From positions 1 through 4,330 of IMG/VR virus record IMGVR_UViG_2706794667_000008: a DNA stretch of 4,330 nucleotides. One strand, 5' to 3'. Positions 1 through 4,330 of this stretch are shown here, piece after piece. Each line of letters opens with the position of its first letter. Within the stretch, counting starts at the first letter, position 1. The stretch comes from a virus (taxonomy: Duplodnaviria > Heunggongvirae > Uroviricota > Caudoviricetes). The notes beneath the pieces are model-generated. The model did no database searches. It had not been told where the DNA came from and worked only from the letters and a program-made list of their open reading frames with translations. Both the position numbers and the translations under genes were made by a program.

Positions 1-23
1 CCCCCCGACAGACCTGTGCTATC

Positions 24-60
24 GGAAAGAAAAAAGGCCATCAGCAAAACTCTGATGGCC
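24..60 (-). terminator. Intrinsic terminator on minus strand (copy 1 of the terminator upstream of the holin in copy 2)
   Basis: Inverted repeat GGCCATCAG (36..44) / CTGATGGCC (52..60) with 7-nt loop; on the minus strand the stem is followed directly by TTTTTTCTTTCC (complement of 24..35). No T-run on the plus side. Confidence 0.6.
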
Positions 61-105
61 TGAATCACCTTTACCAATATTGTATGAAAAAACACGCACG
101 ACTAA

Positions 106-134
106 TTGACAATAATTTTCATTTCCATTAAAAA
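106..134 (+). promoter_or_regulatory. Candidate sigma70 promoter, plus strand (antisense to phage late transcription)
   Basis: TTGACA (106..111), 17-bp spacer, TAAAAA (129..134); AT-rich context. Sequence pattern only, no expression evidence. Confidence 0.25.
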
Positions 135-538
135 AGATCGCGTAGCATTCTTAATTCATGAGGAACTTTACCCGCCAGCAATCTGAGTAGCGAAAGCTGT
201 TCATCCCCAATGTTTTTGCTGGCGGGTCCTTTTTTCTACGGTCCTCCTCCCCGGAGGGGGGCATTTCATTATTTTTCTAATCGTTACTGGTGAGAAGGCG
301 GAAGAAAAAGCCAGTTCTTCGCCCCTAAATAACAGCATGATTCCAGTCCATGCAAAATCTGATTTCCAGCTCACACATACCGAGCGCTGTACAAAAAACC
401 GCCAGCCAAGGCAGTTAAGAGTGTGTTCCCGGGGTTTGCTTAGAATATTTTGTAAGTTGTCCGAAGAGATATTTACAACACCAGAATGATGCATTATCAG
501 TCCCCTGCCAGAGGTTCACTACGTAACCTGACCGACAA

Positions 539-851
539 TGAAGTGGCACACTGAATTTGGCCACCTGAACAGAGGTGATATGCTCACCTCAGAACAACAC
601 AGGTGCTCCAATGAAAAAAAGAAATTTTAGCGCAGAGTTTAAACGCGAATCCGCTCAACTGGTTGTTGACCAGAAATACACGGTGGCAGATGCCGCCAAA
701 GCTATGGATGTTGGCCTTTCCACAATGACAAGATGGGTCAAACAACTGCGTGATGAGCGTCAGGGCAAAACACCAAAAGCCTCTCCGATAACACCAGAAC
801 AAATCGAAATACGTAAGCTGAGGAAAAAGCTACAACGCATTGAAATGGAGA
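539..851 (+). mobile_element. IS911 (IS3 family) left-end fragment, about 313 bp, truncated internally
   Basis: Begins TGAAGTGGCACACTGAATTTGGCCACC, recognised as the IS911 left inverted repeat, followed by the orfA reading frame; similarity stops at 851/852 where the sequence becomes phage endolysin on the opposite strand. No right end present. Confidence 0.85.
611..850 (+). pseudogene. IS911 orfA (transposase OrfA, HTH) truncated after codon 80
   Basis: Translation [80 protein letters not shown] matches IS911 OrfA from memory; lacks the C-terminus, the frameshift window and orfB. The 575 start in the ORF track is an upstream in-frame extension. Confidence 0.85.
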
Positions 852-1059
852 CTGCTTCGGTATACGTTTTACCGAGCATGATGTCTTTTCCGGTGTGTCC
901 GTGACATACAGTCCATACACCAATGATATCTTTGTATGGTATGTAGCTGACACCTTCCAGACCATCGTTACCACCTGGGCCAGTGATTAACACAGATGCT
1001 ATAGCAACAGCCCCACCACCAATAGCAGCTGCAACAGCCTTGCGTAATGATGGCGACAT
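852..1059 (-). pseudogene. SAR endolysin (phage 21 R / RrrD-like lysozyme), N-terminal 69 codons only, fused to IS911 antisense sequence
   Basis: [69 protein letters not shown] resembles the N-terminus of lambdoid SAR endolysins; after codon 69 the frame reads into IS911 antisense (VSISMRCS...) until a stop at 760. Start overlaps the holin stop (TAATG). Confidence 0.8.
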
Positions 1060-1274
1060 TATTCACCTCTCGCAGCCTTACGCTTGTCTTCTCTTATTTT
1101 GAAATACAGATTTGTCAGATAAGTCAGAAGCCCCAGAAGCAGACTTCCCAGCACACCAATCGCAGCCCACTGTGATGGACTGACCTGATCCAACCACTGC
1201 AAAAACCAGTAGCCGGCACTGCCGGCGGAGGTGCCGTAGGCAATGCCTGTTGATATTTTTTCCATCTGATACAT
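1059..1274 (-). CDS. Class II holin (pinholin), phage 21 S / EssD-like, 71 aa
   Basis: [71 protein letters not shown]; two predicted TM segments, charged C-terminus, Met1/Met4 dual-start motif; sits immediately upstream of and overlapping the endolysin start. Confidence 0.9.
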
Positions 1275-1303
1275 ATCCCGCCCCCCGACAGACCTGTGCT
1301 ATC

Positions 1304-1340
1304 GGAAAGAAAAAAGGCCATCAGCAAAACTCTGATGGCC
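1304..1340 (-). terminator. Intrinsic terminator on minus strand, 30 bp upstream of the holin start
   Basis: Same GGCCATCAG / CTGATGGCC hairpin as 24..60, followed on the minus strand by TTTTTTCTTTCC. Confidence 0.6.
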
Positions 1341-1385
1341 TGAATCACCTTTACCAATATTGTATGAAAAAACACGCACGACTAA

Positions 1386-1414
1386 TTGACAATAATTTTC
1401 ATTTCCATTAAAAA
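1386..1414 (+). promoter_or_regulatory. Candidate sigma70 promoter, plus strand (repeat copy 2)
   Basis: Same TTGACA-17-TAAAAA motif as 106..134. Confidence 0.25.
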
Positions 1415-1954
1415 AGATCGCGTAGCATTCTTAATTCATGAGGAACTTTACCCGCCAGCAATCTGAGTAGCGAAAGCTGTTCATCCCCAATGTTTTTGCT
1501 GGCGGGTCCTTTTTTCTACGGTCCTCCTCCCCGGAGGGGGGCATTTCATTATTTTTCTAATCGTTACTGGTGAGAAGGCGGAAGAAAAAGCCAGTTCTTC
1601 GCCCCTAAATAACAGCATGATTCCAGTCCATGCAAAATCTGATTTCCAGCTCACACATACCGAGCGCTGTACAAAAAACCGCCAGCCAAGGCAGTTAAGA
1701 GTGTGTTCCCGGGGTTTGCTTAGAATATTTTGTAAGTTGTCCGAAGAGATATTTACAACACCAGAATGATGAATCATCAGTCCCCTGCCAGAGGTTCACT
1801 ACGTAACCTGACCGACAATGCACCATTCTGGTGCTGAAAAAAGAGCACTGGAACTGCAACAAAACAACATCACAGAACAGGAGATGGTAAGGAGTCAGAC
1901 ATTCCCACACAATATTGTGTCAGTGCAAATAACAACCTTCGTCTCAAATCTCGC

Positions 1955-2029
<75 letters not shown>

Positions 2030-2032
2030 ATA

Positions 2033-2108
<76 letters not shown>

Positions 2109-2110
2109 GC

Positions 2111-2187
2111 TGGCCCACCACCGAGGACTCGAACCTCGCACCGTCAACTTAGAAGGTTGATGCTCTATCCGGATGAGCTAGTGGTGG
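2111..2187 (-). tRNA. tRNA-Arg (anticodon UCU)
   Basis: CCACCACTAGCTCATCCGGATAGAGCATCAACCTTCTAAGTTGACGGTGCGAGGTTCGAGTCCTCGGTGGTGGGCCA: anticodon stem TCAAC/GTTGA, loop CTTCTAA, T-loop TTCGAGT, 7-bp acceptor with an unusual C1-G72 pair. Confidence 0.7.
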
Positions 2188-2188
2188 T

Positions 2189-2265
2189 TGGTGGCCCTTG
2201 CTGGACTTGAACCAGCGACCTGGCGATTATGAGTCGCTCGCTCTGACCAACTGAGCTAAAGGGCC
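2189..2265 (-). tRNA. tRNA-Ile2 (anticodon CAU, ileX/ileZ-like); elongator Met not excluded on anticodon alone
   Basis: GGCCCTTTAGCTCAGTTGGTCAGAGCGAGCGACTCATAATCGCCAGGTCGCTGGTTCAAGTCCAGCAAGGGCCACCA: loop CTCATAA; acceptor and T-arm closely resemble E. coli ileX as recalled. Confidence 0.75.
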
Positions 2266-2361
2266 GGAGGCAGAATAATAACCATATGTCATCACATCTG
2301 CAAACTCATCTGACCACCAGCACGTTTAACGTCCTGTGCCGTTTTTCAGGTATAAAAAAAC

Positions 2362-2387
2362 CCGCATAAAGCGGGCTCTTTCAAATG
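2362..2387 (-). terminator. Intrinsic terminator directly downstream of the Q-like gene (tR'-like late terminator)
   Basis: On the minus strand: GCCCGC, loop TTTAT, GCGGGT, then a 7-T run; 68 bp downstream of the Q stop, upstream of the tRNA array. Confidence 0.8.
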
Positions 2388-2454
2388 TCCATGTCTGCTA
2401 TTCGCCTCGCGGTACAGCTTTGCGAAGCGTACAAGAATTGAAGCAGTTTTTACG

Positions 2455-3009
2455 TCAAAAAGCAATAACTTTTTTCTCTATACCAAAAGCCATAACCATT
2501 GGTTTGTACAAAATAAATTCTGCCACCTTTAGCCAATGCTCAATGCGTCTTTCACAGGTTCTTAAACTCCATTTCGGGTGTGCATCATTCAGCAGTTCAG
2601 CCATTTTGCGTTTGGTCATCCCCCGCCCCTCATACCGTTGCCGAAGGACGCTAATCAATCCTGGATGCTCTGCCAGCACCTCACTTATGACCCGATCAAT
2701 ACATAACGCCTCTGCATCAGTACAATGCGCCAGCCAGCTCTTTTGCTTACCGTTAATCATATCCCGCAAAAAAGCCTCAAGTTCAGACTTGTTCAGACCT
2801 GCTTTTTTCATCCTCCGGAGCGCCTCGTTAATTGCCGTTTTTGTCAGCTTTTTAGAGGTCAACATCAGGTTAAACATATTCCCCGTCTTACCGCCACCAA
2901 TATACGACCAGCGCCCCCACATACGTAGTTTTCCCTGAATCCAGACACTTTCCAGCGTGGTGAGACGAAGGTGTTCTCCGCTTTTTCCTGTATTCGTTGG
3001 GTAAATCAT
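2455..3009 (-). CDS. Putative late-gene antiterminator Q-like protein, 184 aa
   Basis: Starts MIYPTNTGKSGEHLRL... at ATG 3009 preceded by AGGAGGG; the 3129 start in the ORF track is an unsupported extension overlapping the upstream gene. Position between the nin-region genes and the tR'-like terminator matches lambdoid Q; family assignment is from context and recollection, not alignment. Confidence 0.6.
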   Translation of the reverse strand: MIYPTNTGKSGEHLRLTTLESVWIQGKLRMWGRWSYIGGGKTGNMFNLMLTSKKLTKTAINEALRRMKKAGLNKSELEAFLRDMINGKQKSWLAHCTDAEALCIDRVISEVLAEHPGLISVLRQRYEGRGMTKRKMAELLNDAHPKWSLRTCERRIEHWLKVAEFILYKPMVMAFGIEKKVIAF

Positions 3010-3296
3010 AAATATCCCTCCTTTCTCCAGATTTCTTGTGTGCGAAAAACACCTTCTGCATGCATCAGGCGTAATTCTTCTTTGGTGTAATCGCTGGTTT
3101 TTACCCGCCCGTCGATTAAATCGTGGCACGAGCTACAGGCAATCGCTGCCTGCATATCGTGTGGCTTTATCGCTGTTCCGCACGTTCCCGCCAGTCGGTA
3201 ATGCGCCAGCACAGACGTTTCCGGATCGTGATTGCAGTAGCCAGGAATTCTGACGGTGCACATCTGCCCCCGCGCCGCTTTACGTAAATCCACCAT
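3006..3296 (-). CDS. YbcO-like lambdoid nin-region protein (DUF1364 family, Cys-rich), 96 aa
   Basis: MVDLRKAARGQMCTVRIPGYCNHDPETSVLAHYRLAGTCGTAIKPHDMQAAIACSSCHDLIDGR... shares the DLRKAARG / VRIPG-CN / PETSVLAH / CGT / IACS-CHD pattern recalled for DLP12 YbcO. Stop overlaps the Q start (ATGA). Confidence 0.75.
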   Translation of the reverse strand: MVDLRKAARGQMCTVRIPGYCNHDPETSVLAHYRLAGTCGTAIKPHDMQAAIACSSCHDLIDGRVKTSDYTKEELRLMHAEGVFRTQEIWRKEGYL

Positions 3297-3895
3297 TACG
3301 CAAACTCCAGCAGCTGCGCGGCCACATTTTCGACTTGTTCCGGAGAGGAAAATTTACGGAACAGAATCCAGTTCCACAGCACATTCAGAACAGATTTATA
3401 AACCTGCTGAAACTCGGTTTCGTCCATATTCGCAAAAGCGATGGATTTTGCCCGACGCCCGCGGCTACCGTCCGGATAAAAATGTTCGGTGTAAAATCCA
3501 GCCTGAATGGTTACCCACTCGCGAAAAGCCTCAAACGACTTTAGCAATGCCGTATCCCGGGTTCTGCGTGTCGCAACTGTATTCAGATATTGCTCTGCGG
3601 CTTCGCTCAGAGCTGGCGTATGTTCCCGACCTACTGATTCGCACAGGTAATCAACGAAACCAGACAGCAGTTCTCGTTCGCGAGGCGTGATCGCCCCACC
3701 GACCGGAGTCCAGTAATCGAATCCCAGTTGCAGGAGTTTGAAAAAACGCTTGTGGAATGCGTAGTTACGCACACGCTTAAAGTCTGCGTGTATCCACTCA
3801 CCTGTTTTGATTTGATGCAGAAAATCGCAACTCTCCGGCGTCGCCGGGAGAAGTAATCCGGAAGAGGTTTGTTTGATCAGTTGTATATGCGCCAT
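3296..3895 (-). CDS. Lambdoid nin-region protein, probably DUF1367 family, 199 aa
   Basis: ORF MAHIQLIKQTSSGLLLPATPESCDFLHQIKTGEWIHADFKRV... with GGAGAA upstream of ATG 3895; stop overlaps the next start (TAATG). Real-gene call is firm; the family name is from memory of prophage annotations and needs a profile search. Confidence 0.55.
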   Translation of the reverse strand: MAHIQLIKQTSSGLLLPATPESCDFLHQIKTGEWIHADFKRVRNYAFHKRFFKLLQLGFDYWTPVGGAITPRERELLSGFVDYLCESVGREHTPALSEAAEQYLNTVATRRTRDTALLKSFEAFREWVTIQAGFYTEHFYPDGSRGRRAKSIAFANMDETEFQQVYKSVLNVLWNWILFRKFSSPEQVENVAAQLLEFA

Positions 3896-3966
3896 CGTAG
3901 TTCTCCGCTGGCGCAGTAGAATGGGTGTTCAGCCCGTTATGTAGTATACCAGAATTAATGCCAATA

Positions 3967-4179
3967 CTAACAGGATGCTCTGACTCGCAATTCATCCAGC
4001 AGTTTATCATTTCCCATAATGTCACTTACCCTCATCGGTAAAAAAATTGCCTTTCGACCATTACGATACATCATTGATTTTTTGGTTTCAGGGAAGTAAT
4101 CCATTTCGACTATAACTGACAGGTCATCACGACGTATGACTGCGTATTTACTACTAAATAGTTTCTTTATTTTTTCCAC
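3967..4179 (-). CDS. Hypothetical small protein (70 aa), AT-rich orphan; GTG start
   Basis: GTG at 4179 preceded by GGAGG with a 4-nt spacer; AT-rich codons (AAA, ATA, CTA). No homolog recognised. The frame stays open upstream to a stop inside IS1 (4246..4248) with no other start codon, so it may be either a small moron gene or the tail of a gene cut by IS1. Confidence 0.4.
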   Translation of the reverse strand: MEKIKKLFSSKYAVIRRDDLSVIVEMDYFPETKKSMMYRNGRKAIFLPMRVSDIMGNDKLLDELRVRASC

Positions 4180-4230
4180 GATGCCTCCAGGTTTATAAGT
4201 ACAAACGGTTATATCAACATAGAGACAAAA

Positions 4231-4330
4231 GGTGATGCTGCCAACTTACTGATTTAGTGTATGATCGTGTTTTTGAGGTGCTCCAGTGGCTTCTGTTTCT
4301 ATCAGCTGTCCCTCCTGTTCAGCTACTGAC
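4231..4330 (+). mobile_element. IS1 left end (inverted repeat plus start of insA), runs off the window
   Basis: GGTGATGCTGCCAACTTACTGATTTAGTGTATGAT... recognised as the IS1 terminal inverted repeat and leader; one difference from the form I recall (tgatCgtg versus tgatGgtg). Confidence 0.85.
4286..4330 (+). CDS. insA: IS1 InsA, N-terminal 15 codons (partial, continues beyond window)
   Basis: GTG GCT TCT GTT TCT ATC AGC TGT CCC TCC TGT TCA GCT ACT GAC translates VASVSISCPSCSATD, the recalled InsA N-terminus. Confidence 0.8.
   Translation, partial: MASVSISCPSCSATD

What the first reader, a model, noticed from the sequence alone, without database searches (positions are those of the whole stretch)
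1..1820. Rearrangement joint: the region-plus-lysis-cassette unit is duplicated, with an internally truncated IS911 fused to the endolysin interior
Reading the phage strand, copy 2 of the 540-bp region, the holin and endolysin codons 1 to 69 are followed abruptly at 851/852 by the interior of IS911 (its first ~313 bp, inverted). The IS911 left end at 539 then leads into copy 1 of the 540-bp region. This cannot come from a simple insertion; it implies either two related prophages joined by illegitimate recombination or a tandem duplication with deletion. The copies differ at only two positions, so the event is recent or the parents are near-identical.
Basis: seen in the sequence. Interest (0 to 1): 0.5.

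Follow-up and report, generated by a model that had tools for sequence, protein, structure and literature searches.

The report
Prophage rearrangement scar with truncated IS911
This is a dead-end rearrangement scar in a decaying Shigella-type prophage: the front of a phage lysis cassette is joined, with no shared sequence, to the middle of an IS911 insertion sequence that sat in a sister prophage. It is an ordinary by-product of insertion-sequence-driven genome decay, not a new system.

Summary
Positions 1-540 and 1281-1820 are one 540-bp segment that differs only at 492/1772 and 495/1775. Positions 539-851 are IS911 nt 1-313. Position 852 falls just after codon 69 of a SAR-endolysin gene on the minus strand, which follows an intact class II holin gene.

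The two copies are different natural alleles from different prophages, not a fresh duplication. Copy 1 plus the IS911 end matches a prophage type that carries a full-length IS911 at exactly this site in at least five other genomes. Copy 2 plus holin plus the endolysin fragment (852-2365) is 100% identical to a second prophage type. Positions 1954-4330, including an IS1 joint, are 100% identical to the ttcA-site prophage of Shigella sonnei.

The 851/852 joint is blunt, with no microhomology and no IS end. I did not find it in any collection I could search. Shigella chromosomes could not be scanned at the DNA level.

Best reading: one homology-free join between two related prophages, with no function. 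An assembly chimera cannot be excluded. Only the 540-bp segment is shown to be duplicated; a second lysis cassette left of position 1 is inferred from relatives. Interest is low.

The parts
1..540 (.). Copy 1 of the 540-bp late-region spacer (the segment between the tRNA array and the holin gene). It carries the allele ...GATGCATTATC...
   Evidence: Identical to 1281-1820 except at 492 and 495. 100% identical to IMG/VR locus L013 and 1 nt different from L006/L009, where it sits next to IS911.
539..851 (+). IS911 nt 1-313: the left terminal inverted repeat plus orfA codons 1-80. The frameshift site, orfB and the right end are absent.
   Evidence: 100% identical to annotated IS911 in L001. Pfam HTH_Tnp_1, E = 2.8e-14. 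The break lies 11 nt upstream of the A6G slippery heptamer (sequence; my count).
538..541 (.). Junction A: the IS911 left end abuts the tRNA-proximal edge of the 540-bp segment. This is an ordinary IS insertion joint.
   Evidence: The same joint occurs next to a full-length or longer IS911 in L006, L009, L013, L014 and L015.
851..852 (.). Junction B: a blunt, homology-free joint between IS911 nt 313 and the endolysin gene just after codon 69.
   Evidence: Three-way comparison of window, IS911 and intact endolysin. Not found in any searched collection.
611..904 (+). Fusion ORF: OrfA residues 1-80 followed by 17 residues read antisense through the endolysin fragment. Probably a pseudogene product.
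   Evidence: No identical or full-length-similar protein on record.
852..1059 (-). 5' fragment of a SAR-type (RrrD/R21-like) endolysin gene, codons 1-69. The open frame runs on to 760 through IS911 antisense sequence.
   Evidence: Pfam Phage_lysozyme matches only profile positions 3-38 of 125. Aligned with the full 165-aa RrrD of VL40. 100% identical to L018, L021, L022, L025 and L026.
1059..1274 (-). Intact class II (phage 21 S-type) holin gene, 71 aa.
   Evidence: Pfam Phage_holin_2_1, E = 1.5e-35. Identical to the annotated holin of VL40.
1281..1820 (.). Copy 2 of the 540-bp segment, allele ...GATGAATCATC..., continuous with the tRNA spacer as in intact prophages.
   Evidence: 0 differences from VL40 (L002). 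Lies within the 852-2365 block that is 100% identical to L018-type prophages.
1955..2265 (-). Phage tRNA array: Gly(TCC), Thr(TGT), Arg(TCT) and a CAT-anticodon tRNA.
   Evidence: ARAGORN, Rfam. The same array is annotated in L001 and L002.
2455..3009 (-). Q-like late antiterminator gene (DUF1133).
   Evidence: Pfam DUF1133 E = 2e-107 and Phage_antitermQ E = 8e-7. Homologues in induced phages are annotated 'antitermination protein Q'.
3006..4179 (-). nin-region genes: YbcO nuclease (3006-3296), DUF1367 (3296-3895) and a 70-aa hypothetical protein (3967-4179).
   Evidence: Pfam. Same gene order in L002-L012.
4231..4330 (+). First 100 nt of an IS1 copy. The window ends inside it.
   Evidence: Matches IS1 copies next to InsA/DDE_Tnp_IS1 genes in L003-L011. 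The same IS1/phage joint is present in those genomes, and L011 is S. sonnei FDAARGOS_90.

Best explanation
The window is the late region of a degraded lambdoid prophage in a Shigella sonnei-like, IS-rich genome. Two near-identical late-region modules from different prophages have been placed next to each other by one homology-free join.

Parent A reads on the phage (minus) strand as IS1, nin genes, Q-like gene, four tRNAs, 540-bp segment, holin, endolysin. It is intact up to endolysin codon 69. Parent B is a sister prophage in which a complete IS911 had earlier inserted exactly at the tRNA-side edge of its own 540-bp segment.

A break inside the endolysin gene of A was joined to a break at nt 313 of that IS911 in B. 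This left tRNAs, segment copy 2, holin, endolysin codons 1-69, IS911 nt 313 to 1, segment copy 1, and then (inferred) B's own holin and endolysin.

Shown: the anatomy, the separate parentage of the two halves, the earlier IS911 insertion, and the blunt joint with no IS end. Inferred: the join is a real illegitimate-recombination event (end-joining or template-switch type); it created an inversion or other large rearrangement between two prophage loci; and the product has no function. The endolysin of cassette 2 and the IS911 copy are both inactivated.
For: - Repeat and joints verified.
- The two differences between the copies are alleles already present elsewhere. CATTATC occurs in L006, L009, L010, L012 and L013. 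AATCATC occurs in L001, L002 and L018-L022.
- Window 852-2365 is 100% identical to the L018, L021, L022, L025 and L026 prophages. It carries eight SNPs that distinguish it from the B-type locus L009.
- Window 1-851 is 100% identical to L013 and differs by 1 nt from L009 up to the break.
- Junction A occurs next to a complete IS911 in L006 and L009, and also in L013-L015. A full IS911 was therefore the ancestral state at this site.
- The order Q(DUF1133), tRNAs, segment, holin, endolysin is a natural contiguous architecture in L002, L010, L012 and L023.
- Window 1954-4330, including the IS1 joint, is 100% identical to S. sonnei genomes.
- A prophage matching window 1954-4330 (IS1 joint included) and a B-type prophage co-reside in one chromosome, CP061367.1. 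They are about 1.09 Mb apart and in opposite orientation.
- IS911 and IS1 are among the five IS expanded in all Shigella and in EIEC (PMC7373316).
- Truncated and fused RrrD-type endolysins are common in public data.
Against: - Junction B was found in no other sequence. Searched: 5,426 complete E. coli genomes, GTDB species representatives, JGI metagenomes, IMG/VR, phage and plasmid records, and 5.8 billion protein clusters queried with both fusion ORFs. There is therefore no independent confirmation that it exists in a real chromosome.
- A 0-nt microhomology join is unusual for E. coli-type illegitimate recombination, which normally uses a few shared bases (my knowledge).
- The window ends 100 nt into IS1 and begins inside a repeat. 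That would also fit a draft contig.
- The predicted reciprocal joint was not found, although Shigella chromosomes could not be searched.
Confidence: 0.6

Rival explanations
1. Assembly or scaffolding chimera. The source genome holds separate prophages that share the tRNA array, the 540-bp segment, the holin gene and the endolysin gene. The assembler or a chimeric read joined pieces that are not contiguous in the chromosome.
For: - Both sides of junction B are multi-copy sequences in these genomes (IS911 and prophage endolysin genes).
- The window is a patchwork of segments that are each 100% identical to three different loci. The switch between two of them falls inside a shared 412-bp tRNA block, 1954-2365.
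- The window ends 100 nt into IS1, as draft contigs do. Thousands of public contigs break at about 1952-1964 and in IS1.
- The closest public relative, L013, is itself a scaffold with single-N pseudo-joints in this very region.
- The joint is seen nowhere else.
Against: - Repeat-induced misassembly switches copies inside shared sequence. It does not create a blunt joint between unrelated sequences.
- Junction B has no shared k-mer, so reads containing it must have existed.
- The sequence is of high quality, 100% identical to complete genomes over 2.4 kb.
- The window contains no N.
- The Q-tRNA-segment-holin-endolysin order is a natural architecture, so only one joint is abnormal.
Confidence: 0.22
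2. Tandem duplication within a single prophage that already carried IS911, followed by deletion and/or gene conversion.
For: The two 540-bp copies are direct repeats 1,280 bp apart and 99.6% identical. Unequal sister-strand exchange is a common source of such repeats (my knowledge).
Against: - A tandem duplication with the novel joint endolysin-69 to IS911-313 would leave the rest of IS911 upstream of the first unit. Instead, copy 2 is seamlessly continuous with the tRNA spacer, as in IS-free prophages.
- The two differences between the copies coincide exactly with two alleles that circulate independently.
- The holin and endolysin fragment next to copy 2 carry six further SNPs that distinguish them from the holin and endolysin of the IS911-bearing prophage type.
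Confidence: 0.1
3. A transposase-mediated IS911 event (one-ended transposition, use of a pseudo-end, or an adjacent deletion) produced the joint.
For: IS911 is active and expanded in Shigella and EIEC (PMC7373316). IS911 has hit this late region repeatedly at different sites (L001, L008, L009, L020).
Against: - Transposase-made joints lie at an IS terminus (5'-TG...CA-3' for IS3-family elements; my knowledge).
- Here the break is internal, at nt 313, and ends ...GGAGA. There is no CA, no IR-like sequence and no target duplication.
- Adjacent deletions leave the IS intact, but this copy has lost nt 314-1250.
Confidence: 0.04

Closest known systems
IS911 (IS3 family) insertion at the same prophage site in other Shigella-type genomes (loci L006, L009, L013-L015)
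   Same: Junction A is identical: the IS911 left end lies against ...CCTGACCGACAA, with the same orientation and the same allele of the 540-bp segment.
   Different: In L006 and L009 the IS911 is full length, and in L013 it reaches at least nt 832. Its right end abuts the tRNA array at window-equivalent 2195. In the window it stops at nt 313 and is fused to an endolysin fragment.
Phage 21 / DLP12-type lysis cassette (class II holin S21/EssD, SAR endolysin R21/RrrD, Rz/Rz1) downstream of Q and a tRNA array
   Same: Same gene order and families. The holin is intact. The endolysin N-terminus keeps the hydrophobic SAR segment and residues E35, D44 and T50. The window matches K-12 essD-rrrD at 86% nucleotide identity.
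   Different: The endolysin is cut after codon 69 and no Rz/Rz1 follows. The 540-bp segment has no similarity to the DLP12 nmpC-essD spacer.
Truncated IS911 remnants such as insN of E. coli K-12 CP4-6 (a database hit is named 'CP4-6 prophage; partial regulator of insertion element IS911A')
   Same: A prophage-embedded IS911 that keeps only an orfA-type reading frame (P0201).
   Different: From my knowledge, the K-12 copy is split by insertion of another IS. Here no other IS is present at the break, and the partner sequence is a phage gene interior.
Mosaic joints between lambdoid phages, and inter-prophage rearrangements in IS-rich Shigella/EIEC genomes
   Same: Modules from different prophages sit side by side. 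The IS-rich background is documented in PMC7373316.
   Different: From my knowledge, most documented inter-prophage rearrangements arise by homologous recombination within shared modules or IS copies. This joint is homology-free and destroys both partners.

Membership tests
IS911 (IS3 family insertion sequence) | Left terminal inverted repeat starting 5'-TG, with IS911 sequence identity | tested here: met
   Window 539-851 is 100% identical to nt 1-313 of an annotated IS911.
IS911 (IS3 family insertion sequence) | orfA encoding an HTH protein (100 aa in IS911) | tested here: inconclusive
   Only codons 1-80 are present. Pfam HTH_Tnp_1 E = 2.8e-14 over residues 1-74. The C-terminal 20 residues are replaced by 17 unrelated ones.
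IS911 (IS3 family insertion sequence) | A6G -1 frameshift site and orfB (DDE transposase) | tested here: not met
   The IS911 sequence stops at nt 313, 11 nt before the slippery heptamer. No rve-domain ORF is present in the window.
IS911 (IS3 family insertion sequence) | Right terminal inverted repeat and short direct target duplication | tested here: not met
   No second IS911 segment is present in the window. In relatives the right end abuts window-equivalent 2195, so no duplication can be read.
Phage 21-type lysis cassette | Class II holin | tested here: met
   Pfam Phage_holin_2_1 E = 1.5e-35, full length.
Phage 21-type lysis cassette | Complete lysozyme-fold endolysin | tested here: not met
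   Only 69 of 165 codons remain. Pfam covers profile positions 3-38 of 125.
Phage 21-type lysis cassette | Rz/Rz1 spanin genes downstream of the endolysin | tested here: not met
   The IS911 fragment and copy 1 follow instead. A cassette left of position 1 is not visible.
Simple tandem duplication | Two units of one origin, with a single novel joint between the end and the start of the unit and ancestral flanks on both sides | tested here: not met
   The unit boundaries differ: copy 2 is flanked by the tRNA spacer and copy 1 by IS911. The copies carry distinct pre-existing alleles.
Lambdoid prophage late region | Q-type antiterminator followed by a lysis cassette on the same strand, with nin-region genes upstream | tested here: met
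   DUF1367, YbcO, DUF1133/antitermQ, tRNAs, holin and endolysin fragment all lie on the minus strand. The order is collinear with intact prophages and induced phages.

The most novel reading that the evidence does not exclude
The joint is a genuine, very recent, homology-free (0-nt) fusion between two co-resident prophages in a bacterium that lacks classical Ku/LigD end-joining. It would be a preserved raw product of the illegitimate recombination thought to generate lambdoid mosaic joints, kept only because a defective prophage in a decaying Shigella genome is under no selection. If the parents lay inverted as in CP061367.1, it would also mark one end of a chromosomal inversion of about 1 Mb whose breakpoints lie in neither an IS end nor a shared module.
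Probability: 0.35. Interest if true: 0.3.

Novelty: new member of a known kind. Interest (0 to 1): 0.12.

Why it matters
It matters little beyond bookkeeping. It is one more example of how IS-laden Shigella and EIEC genomes shuffle and destroy prophage modules. If real, the joint is a strain-specific structural marker and may flag a larger rearrangement between two prophage loci.

In practical terms, an annotator should call the endolysin and the IS911 orfA here as pseudogenes. An assembler or curator should treat this region as high risk for misjoins, because it combines the tRNA array, the 540-bp segment, the holin and endolysin genes, IS1 and IS911, all of which are multi-copy.

Tried and rejected
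- **Looking for junction B elsewhere.** All of these were negative:
  - 100- and 200-bp queries against complete E. coli genomes, phage records and plasmid records.
  - An exact 29-mer in GTDB representatives, JGI metagenomes and IMG/VR.
  - A 20-mer, which gave only chance 21-22-nt matches in Flavobacteria and similar taxa.
  - Exact look-ups of three versions of the fusion ORFs.
  - Homology searches with both fusion ORFs.
  - None of these tools scans Shigella chromosomes at the DNA level. PGAP pseudogenes have no protein on record, so absence is not proof.
- **The predicted reciprocal joint** (endolysin codon 70 onward fused to IS911 nt 314 onward) was not found in IMG/VR or in E. coli genomes.
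- **A recurrent breakpoint at endolysin codon 69.** Rejected. Other truncated endolysins break at various codons, several of them at what I read (from memory of the IS2 end) as IS2 termini at codons 73-77. The one protein that breaks at codon 69 (P0012) is DLP12 in an ENA contig whose neighbouring genes are also split, so I take the truncation to be an assembly or frameshift error.
- **L013 as a second example of a truncated IS911 joint.** Rejected. Its IS911(832)/segment joint is a single-N scaffold join.
- **The 540-bp segment as the IpeX/nmpC-essD spacer of DLP12.** Rejected. There is no similarity, and Rfam finds only the tRNAs.
- **IS911 pseudo-end or one-ended transposition.** Rejected on the sequence of the break.
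- **Finding the source genome through its proteins.** The DUF1133 and holin look-ups gave the parents but not the source.

Full report
**Observation**

The window holds a direct repeat, 1-540 and 1281-1820. It differs only at 492/1772 (C/A) and 495/1775 (T/C), and similarity ends sharply after 540/1820 (the repeat tool reports the first 300 nt as family D1).

Positions 539-851 are 100% identical to nt 1-313 of an element annotated as IS911 in E. coli VL7S7. This stretch contains the left terminal repeat and orfA codons 1-80, which match Pfam HTH_Tnp_1 at E = 2.8e-14.

From 852 the minus strand carries the first 69 codons plus 1 nt of an RrrD-type SAR-endolysin gene. An intact 71-aa class II holin gene precedes it at 1059-1274.

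**Wider anatomy**

On the minus (phage) strand the window reads as follows:
- an IS1 end (4231-4330);
- a 70-aa ORF, then DUF1367, then YbcO;
- a DUF1133/Q-like antiterminator;
- four tRNAs: Gly, Thr, Arg and a CAT-anticodon tRNA;
- a 134-nt spacer;
- segment copy 2, the holin gene and the endolysin fragment;
- IS911 nt 313 to 1;
- segment copy 1.

The order Q-like gene, tRNAs, 540-bp segment, holin, full endolysin, Rz is a normal contiguous architecture in intact prophages of EIEC strain VL40 and of other strains (L002, L010, L012, L023). Related induced phages annotate the DUF1133 gene as antiterminator Q.

**Parentage**

Three blocks can be traced.

- *Window 1954-4330, including the IS1/phage joint.* It is 100% identical to a prophage next to dbpA-ttcA (I recognise this as the Rac attachment region, from memory) in five IS-rich genomes of about 4.8 Mb. 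One of them, CP014099, is Shigella sonnei FDAARGOS_90. Those genomes diverge from the window left of 1954: about 181 bp of other sequence and then an IS.
- *Window 852-2365.* It is 100% identical to a second prophage type with the gene order DnaB, RusA, Q, ORF6N, tRNAs, segment, holin, endolysin, Rz, HNH, terminase (L018, L021, L022, L025, L026). It carries SNPs at 874, 875, 1015, 1028, 1086, 1113, 1772 and 1775 that separate it from the third type.
- *Window 1-851.* It is 100% identical to IMG/VR locus L013. Up to the break it differs by one base from L006 and L009. Those are prophages beside modABC in which a full-length IS911 sits at exactly junction A, with its right end against the tRNA array at window-equivalent 2195.

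The two differences between the copies are therefore not new mutations. CATTATC is the allele of L006, L009, L010, L012 and L013. AATCATC is the allele of L001, L002 and the L018 group.

The 'duplication' is thus a juxtaposition of two allelic modules from different prophages. The first and third prophage types are seen together in one chromosome, CP061367.1, about 1.09 Mb apart and in opposite orientation.

**The two joints**

Junction A is an ordinary, older IS911 insertion joint shared with at least five other genomes.

Junction B (851/852) is the only abnormal joint. The three sequences around it are:
- IS911 continues ...GGAGA|ATGAAATATT;
- the intact endolysin gene reads ...GCATT|CTGCTTCGG;
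- the window reads ...GGAGA|CTGCTTCGG.

So the join is blunt with no microhomology. It is not at an IS terminus, has no IR-like sequence and has no target duplication. This argues against a transposase-made joint. The break lies 11 nt upstream of the A6G frameshift heptamer, so this IS911 copy cannot make transposase.

Two convergent fusion ORFs overlap the joint: 611-904 on the plus strand and 760-1059 on the minus strand.

**Is junction B seen anywhere else?**

No, in everything I could search.
- It is absent from 5,426 complete E. coli genomes.
- It is absent from phage and plasmid records.
- It is absent from GTDB representatives, JGI metagenomes and IMG/VR.
- A 20-mer across the joint gave only chance hits.
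- Neither fusion ORF is on record exactly.
- Neither fusion ORF has a full-length relative among 5.8 billion protein clusters.
- The predicted reciprocal joint was not found either.

The caveat is that no tool scans Shigella chromosomes at the DNA level, and pseudogenes have no protein record.

**Mechanism and rivals**

*Best reading (confidence about 0.6).* One illegitimate, homology-free join took place between a break in the endolysin gene of one prophage and a break inside the IS911 copy of a sister prophage. It has persisted because these prophages are defective. If the parents were inverted relative to each other, as in CP061367.1, the event would be an inversion with a reciprocal joint elsewhere in the genome.

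*Assembly chimera (about 0.22).*
- For: multi-copy sequences lie on both sides of the joint. The window ends 100 nt into IS1, as draft contigs do. The block switch falls within the shared tRNA array. The closest public relative, L013, is itself a scaffold with single-N pseudo-joints here.
- Against: repeat-driven misassembly does not produce a blunt joint between unrelated sequences.

*Tandem duplication plus deletion (about 0.1).* This is disfavoured by the allele data, and because copy 2 joins the tRNA spacer with no IS911.

*A transposase-mediated origin (about 0.04).* This is disfavoured by the sequence at the break.

**Consequences (inferred)**

Cassette 2 has a holin but no working endolysin or spanin. 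The IS911 fragment is immobile. It may still express an 80-residue OrfA fragment from its own promoter. If a complete cassette follows copy 1, as in the relatives, late transcription antiterminated by Q could still reach it through the fragment. None of this was tested.

**Comparison with known elements, and novelty**

All components are known families: IS911/IS3, IS1, a phage 21/DLP12-type lysis cassette and a lambdoid nin-Q-tRNA region. IS1 and IS911 are among the five IS expanded in all Shigella and in EIEC, with 229-348 IS copies per reference chromosome (PMC7373316). Truncated and fused RrrD-type endolysins and truncated IS911 orfA remnants are common in public data.

The specific joint is new to the databases I searched, but the kind of feature is ordinary. 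I rate it a new member of a known kind, with low interest (0.12).

Noticed in passing
window 4231-4330: The window ends 100 nt into an IS1 copy, reaching the start of insA. The same IS1/phage joint is present, 100% identical, in S. sonnei genomes including FDAARGOS_90. This places the source in or near the S. sonnei lineage. It is also the kind of place where draft contigs stop.
   Followed up: partly
window 136-240 (+), and the same sequence at 1416-1520 (+): On the strand antisense to the phage late genes, a 12-bp G+C-rich stem with a long loop is followed by a U-run. It folds at -33 kcal/mol with z = -3.9 against shuffles. Read by eye, a TTGACA...TAAAAA promoter-like pair lies at about 107-135; the promoter scan did not list it. 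It could be a small antisense RNA or simply a terminator. There is no Rfam match.
   Followed up: partly
window 61-35 (-) and 1341-1315 (-): A strong intrinsic-terminator-like hairpin on the phage strand (AGGCCATCAGAGTTTTGCTGATGGCCT followed by a T-run) lies about 35 nt upstream of the holin start. This fits a late operon that needs Q antitermination. Terminator-like sites are about six times enriched in 1-2000 relative to shuffles, partly because the segment is present twice.
   Followed up: no
window 472-502 / 1752-1782 versus 1810-1840: An imperfect 31-nt inverted repeat brackets the tRNA-side edge of the 540-bp segment (I1 and I2). The two polymorphic positions (492/495) lie in its left arm, and the CATTATC allele pairs better (84% versus 77%). 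IS911 inserted inside the right arm, at 1820/1821.
   Followed up: no
window 2189-2265 (-): ARAGORN calls the CAT-anticodon tRNA Met. RefSeq annotates the equivalent gene in VL40 and VL7S7 as tRNA-Ile. It is probably a lysidine-modified Ile2-type tRNA, which is typical of phage tRNA arrays downstream of Q.
   Followed up: no
L013 (IMGVR_UViG_2671180430_000009), rc coordinates 1539 and 1965: This public viral contig is a scaffold whose pieces are joined by single N characters: IS911 nt 832|N|segment position 216, and spacer|N|IS. Its apparent duplicated-segment structure is therefore not contiguous sequence and could mislead comparisons.
   Followed up: yes
L001, L008, L009, L020 (late regions of related prophages): IS911 has landed in this late region at several different sites. 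In L001 (VL7S7) its left end abuts a truncated YdfR-family gene and its right end abuts the holin gene's stop. In L008 and L005 it sits inside another IS. In L009 it lies at the segment edge. In L020 it is at the Q 3' end and again after Rz.
   Followed up: partly
window 2266-2454: Only about 190 bp separate the Q-like gene from the tRNA array. VL40 and the L018-type prophages carry an ORF6N-domain gene at this position. It appears to be a mosaic boundary at about 2365-2475.
   Followed up: no
proteins P0011, P0028, P0035: Several truncated RrrD-type endolysins in public data run into sequence that I recognise, from memory of the IS2 left end, as a translated IS2 terminus. They do so at codons 73-77 in different frames. 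This suggests repeated independent IS2 hits a few codons downstream of the break seen here.
   Followed up: partly
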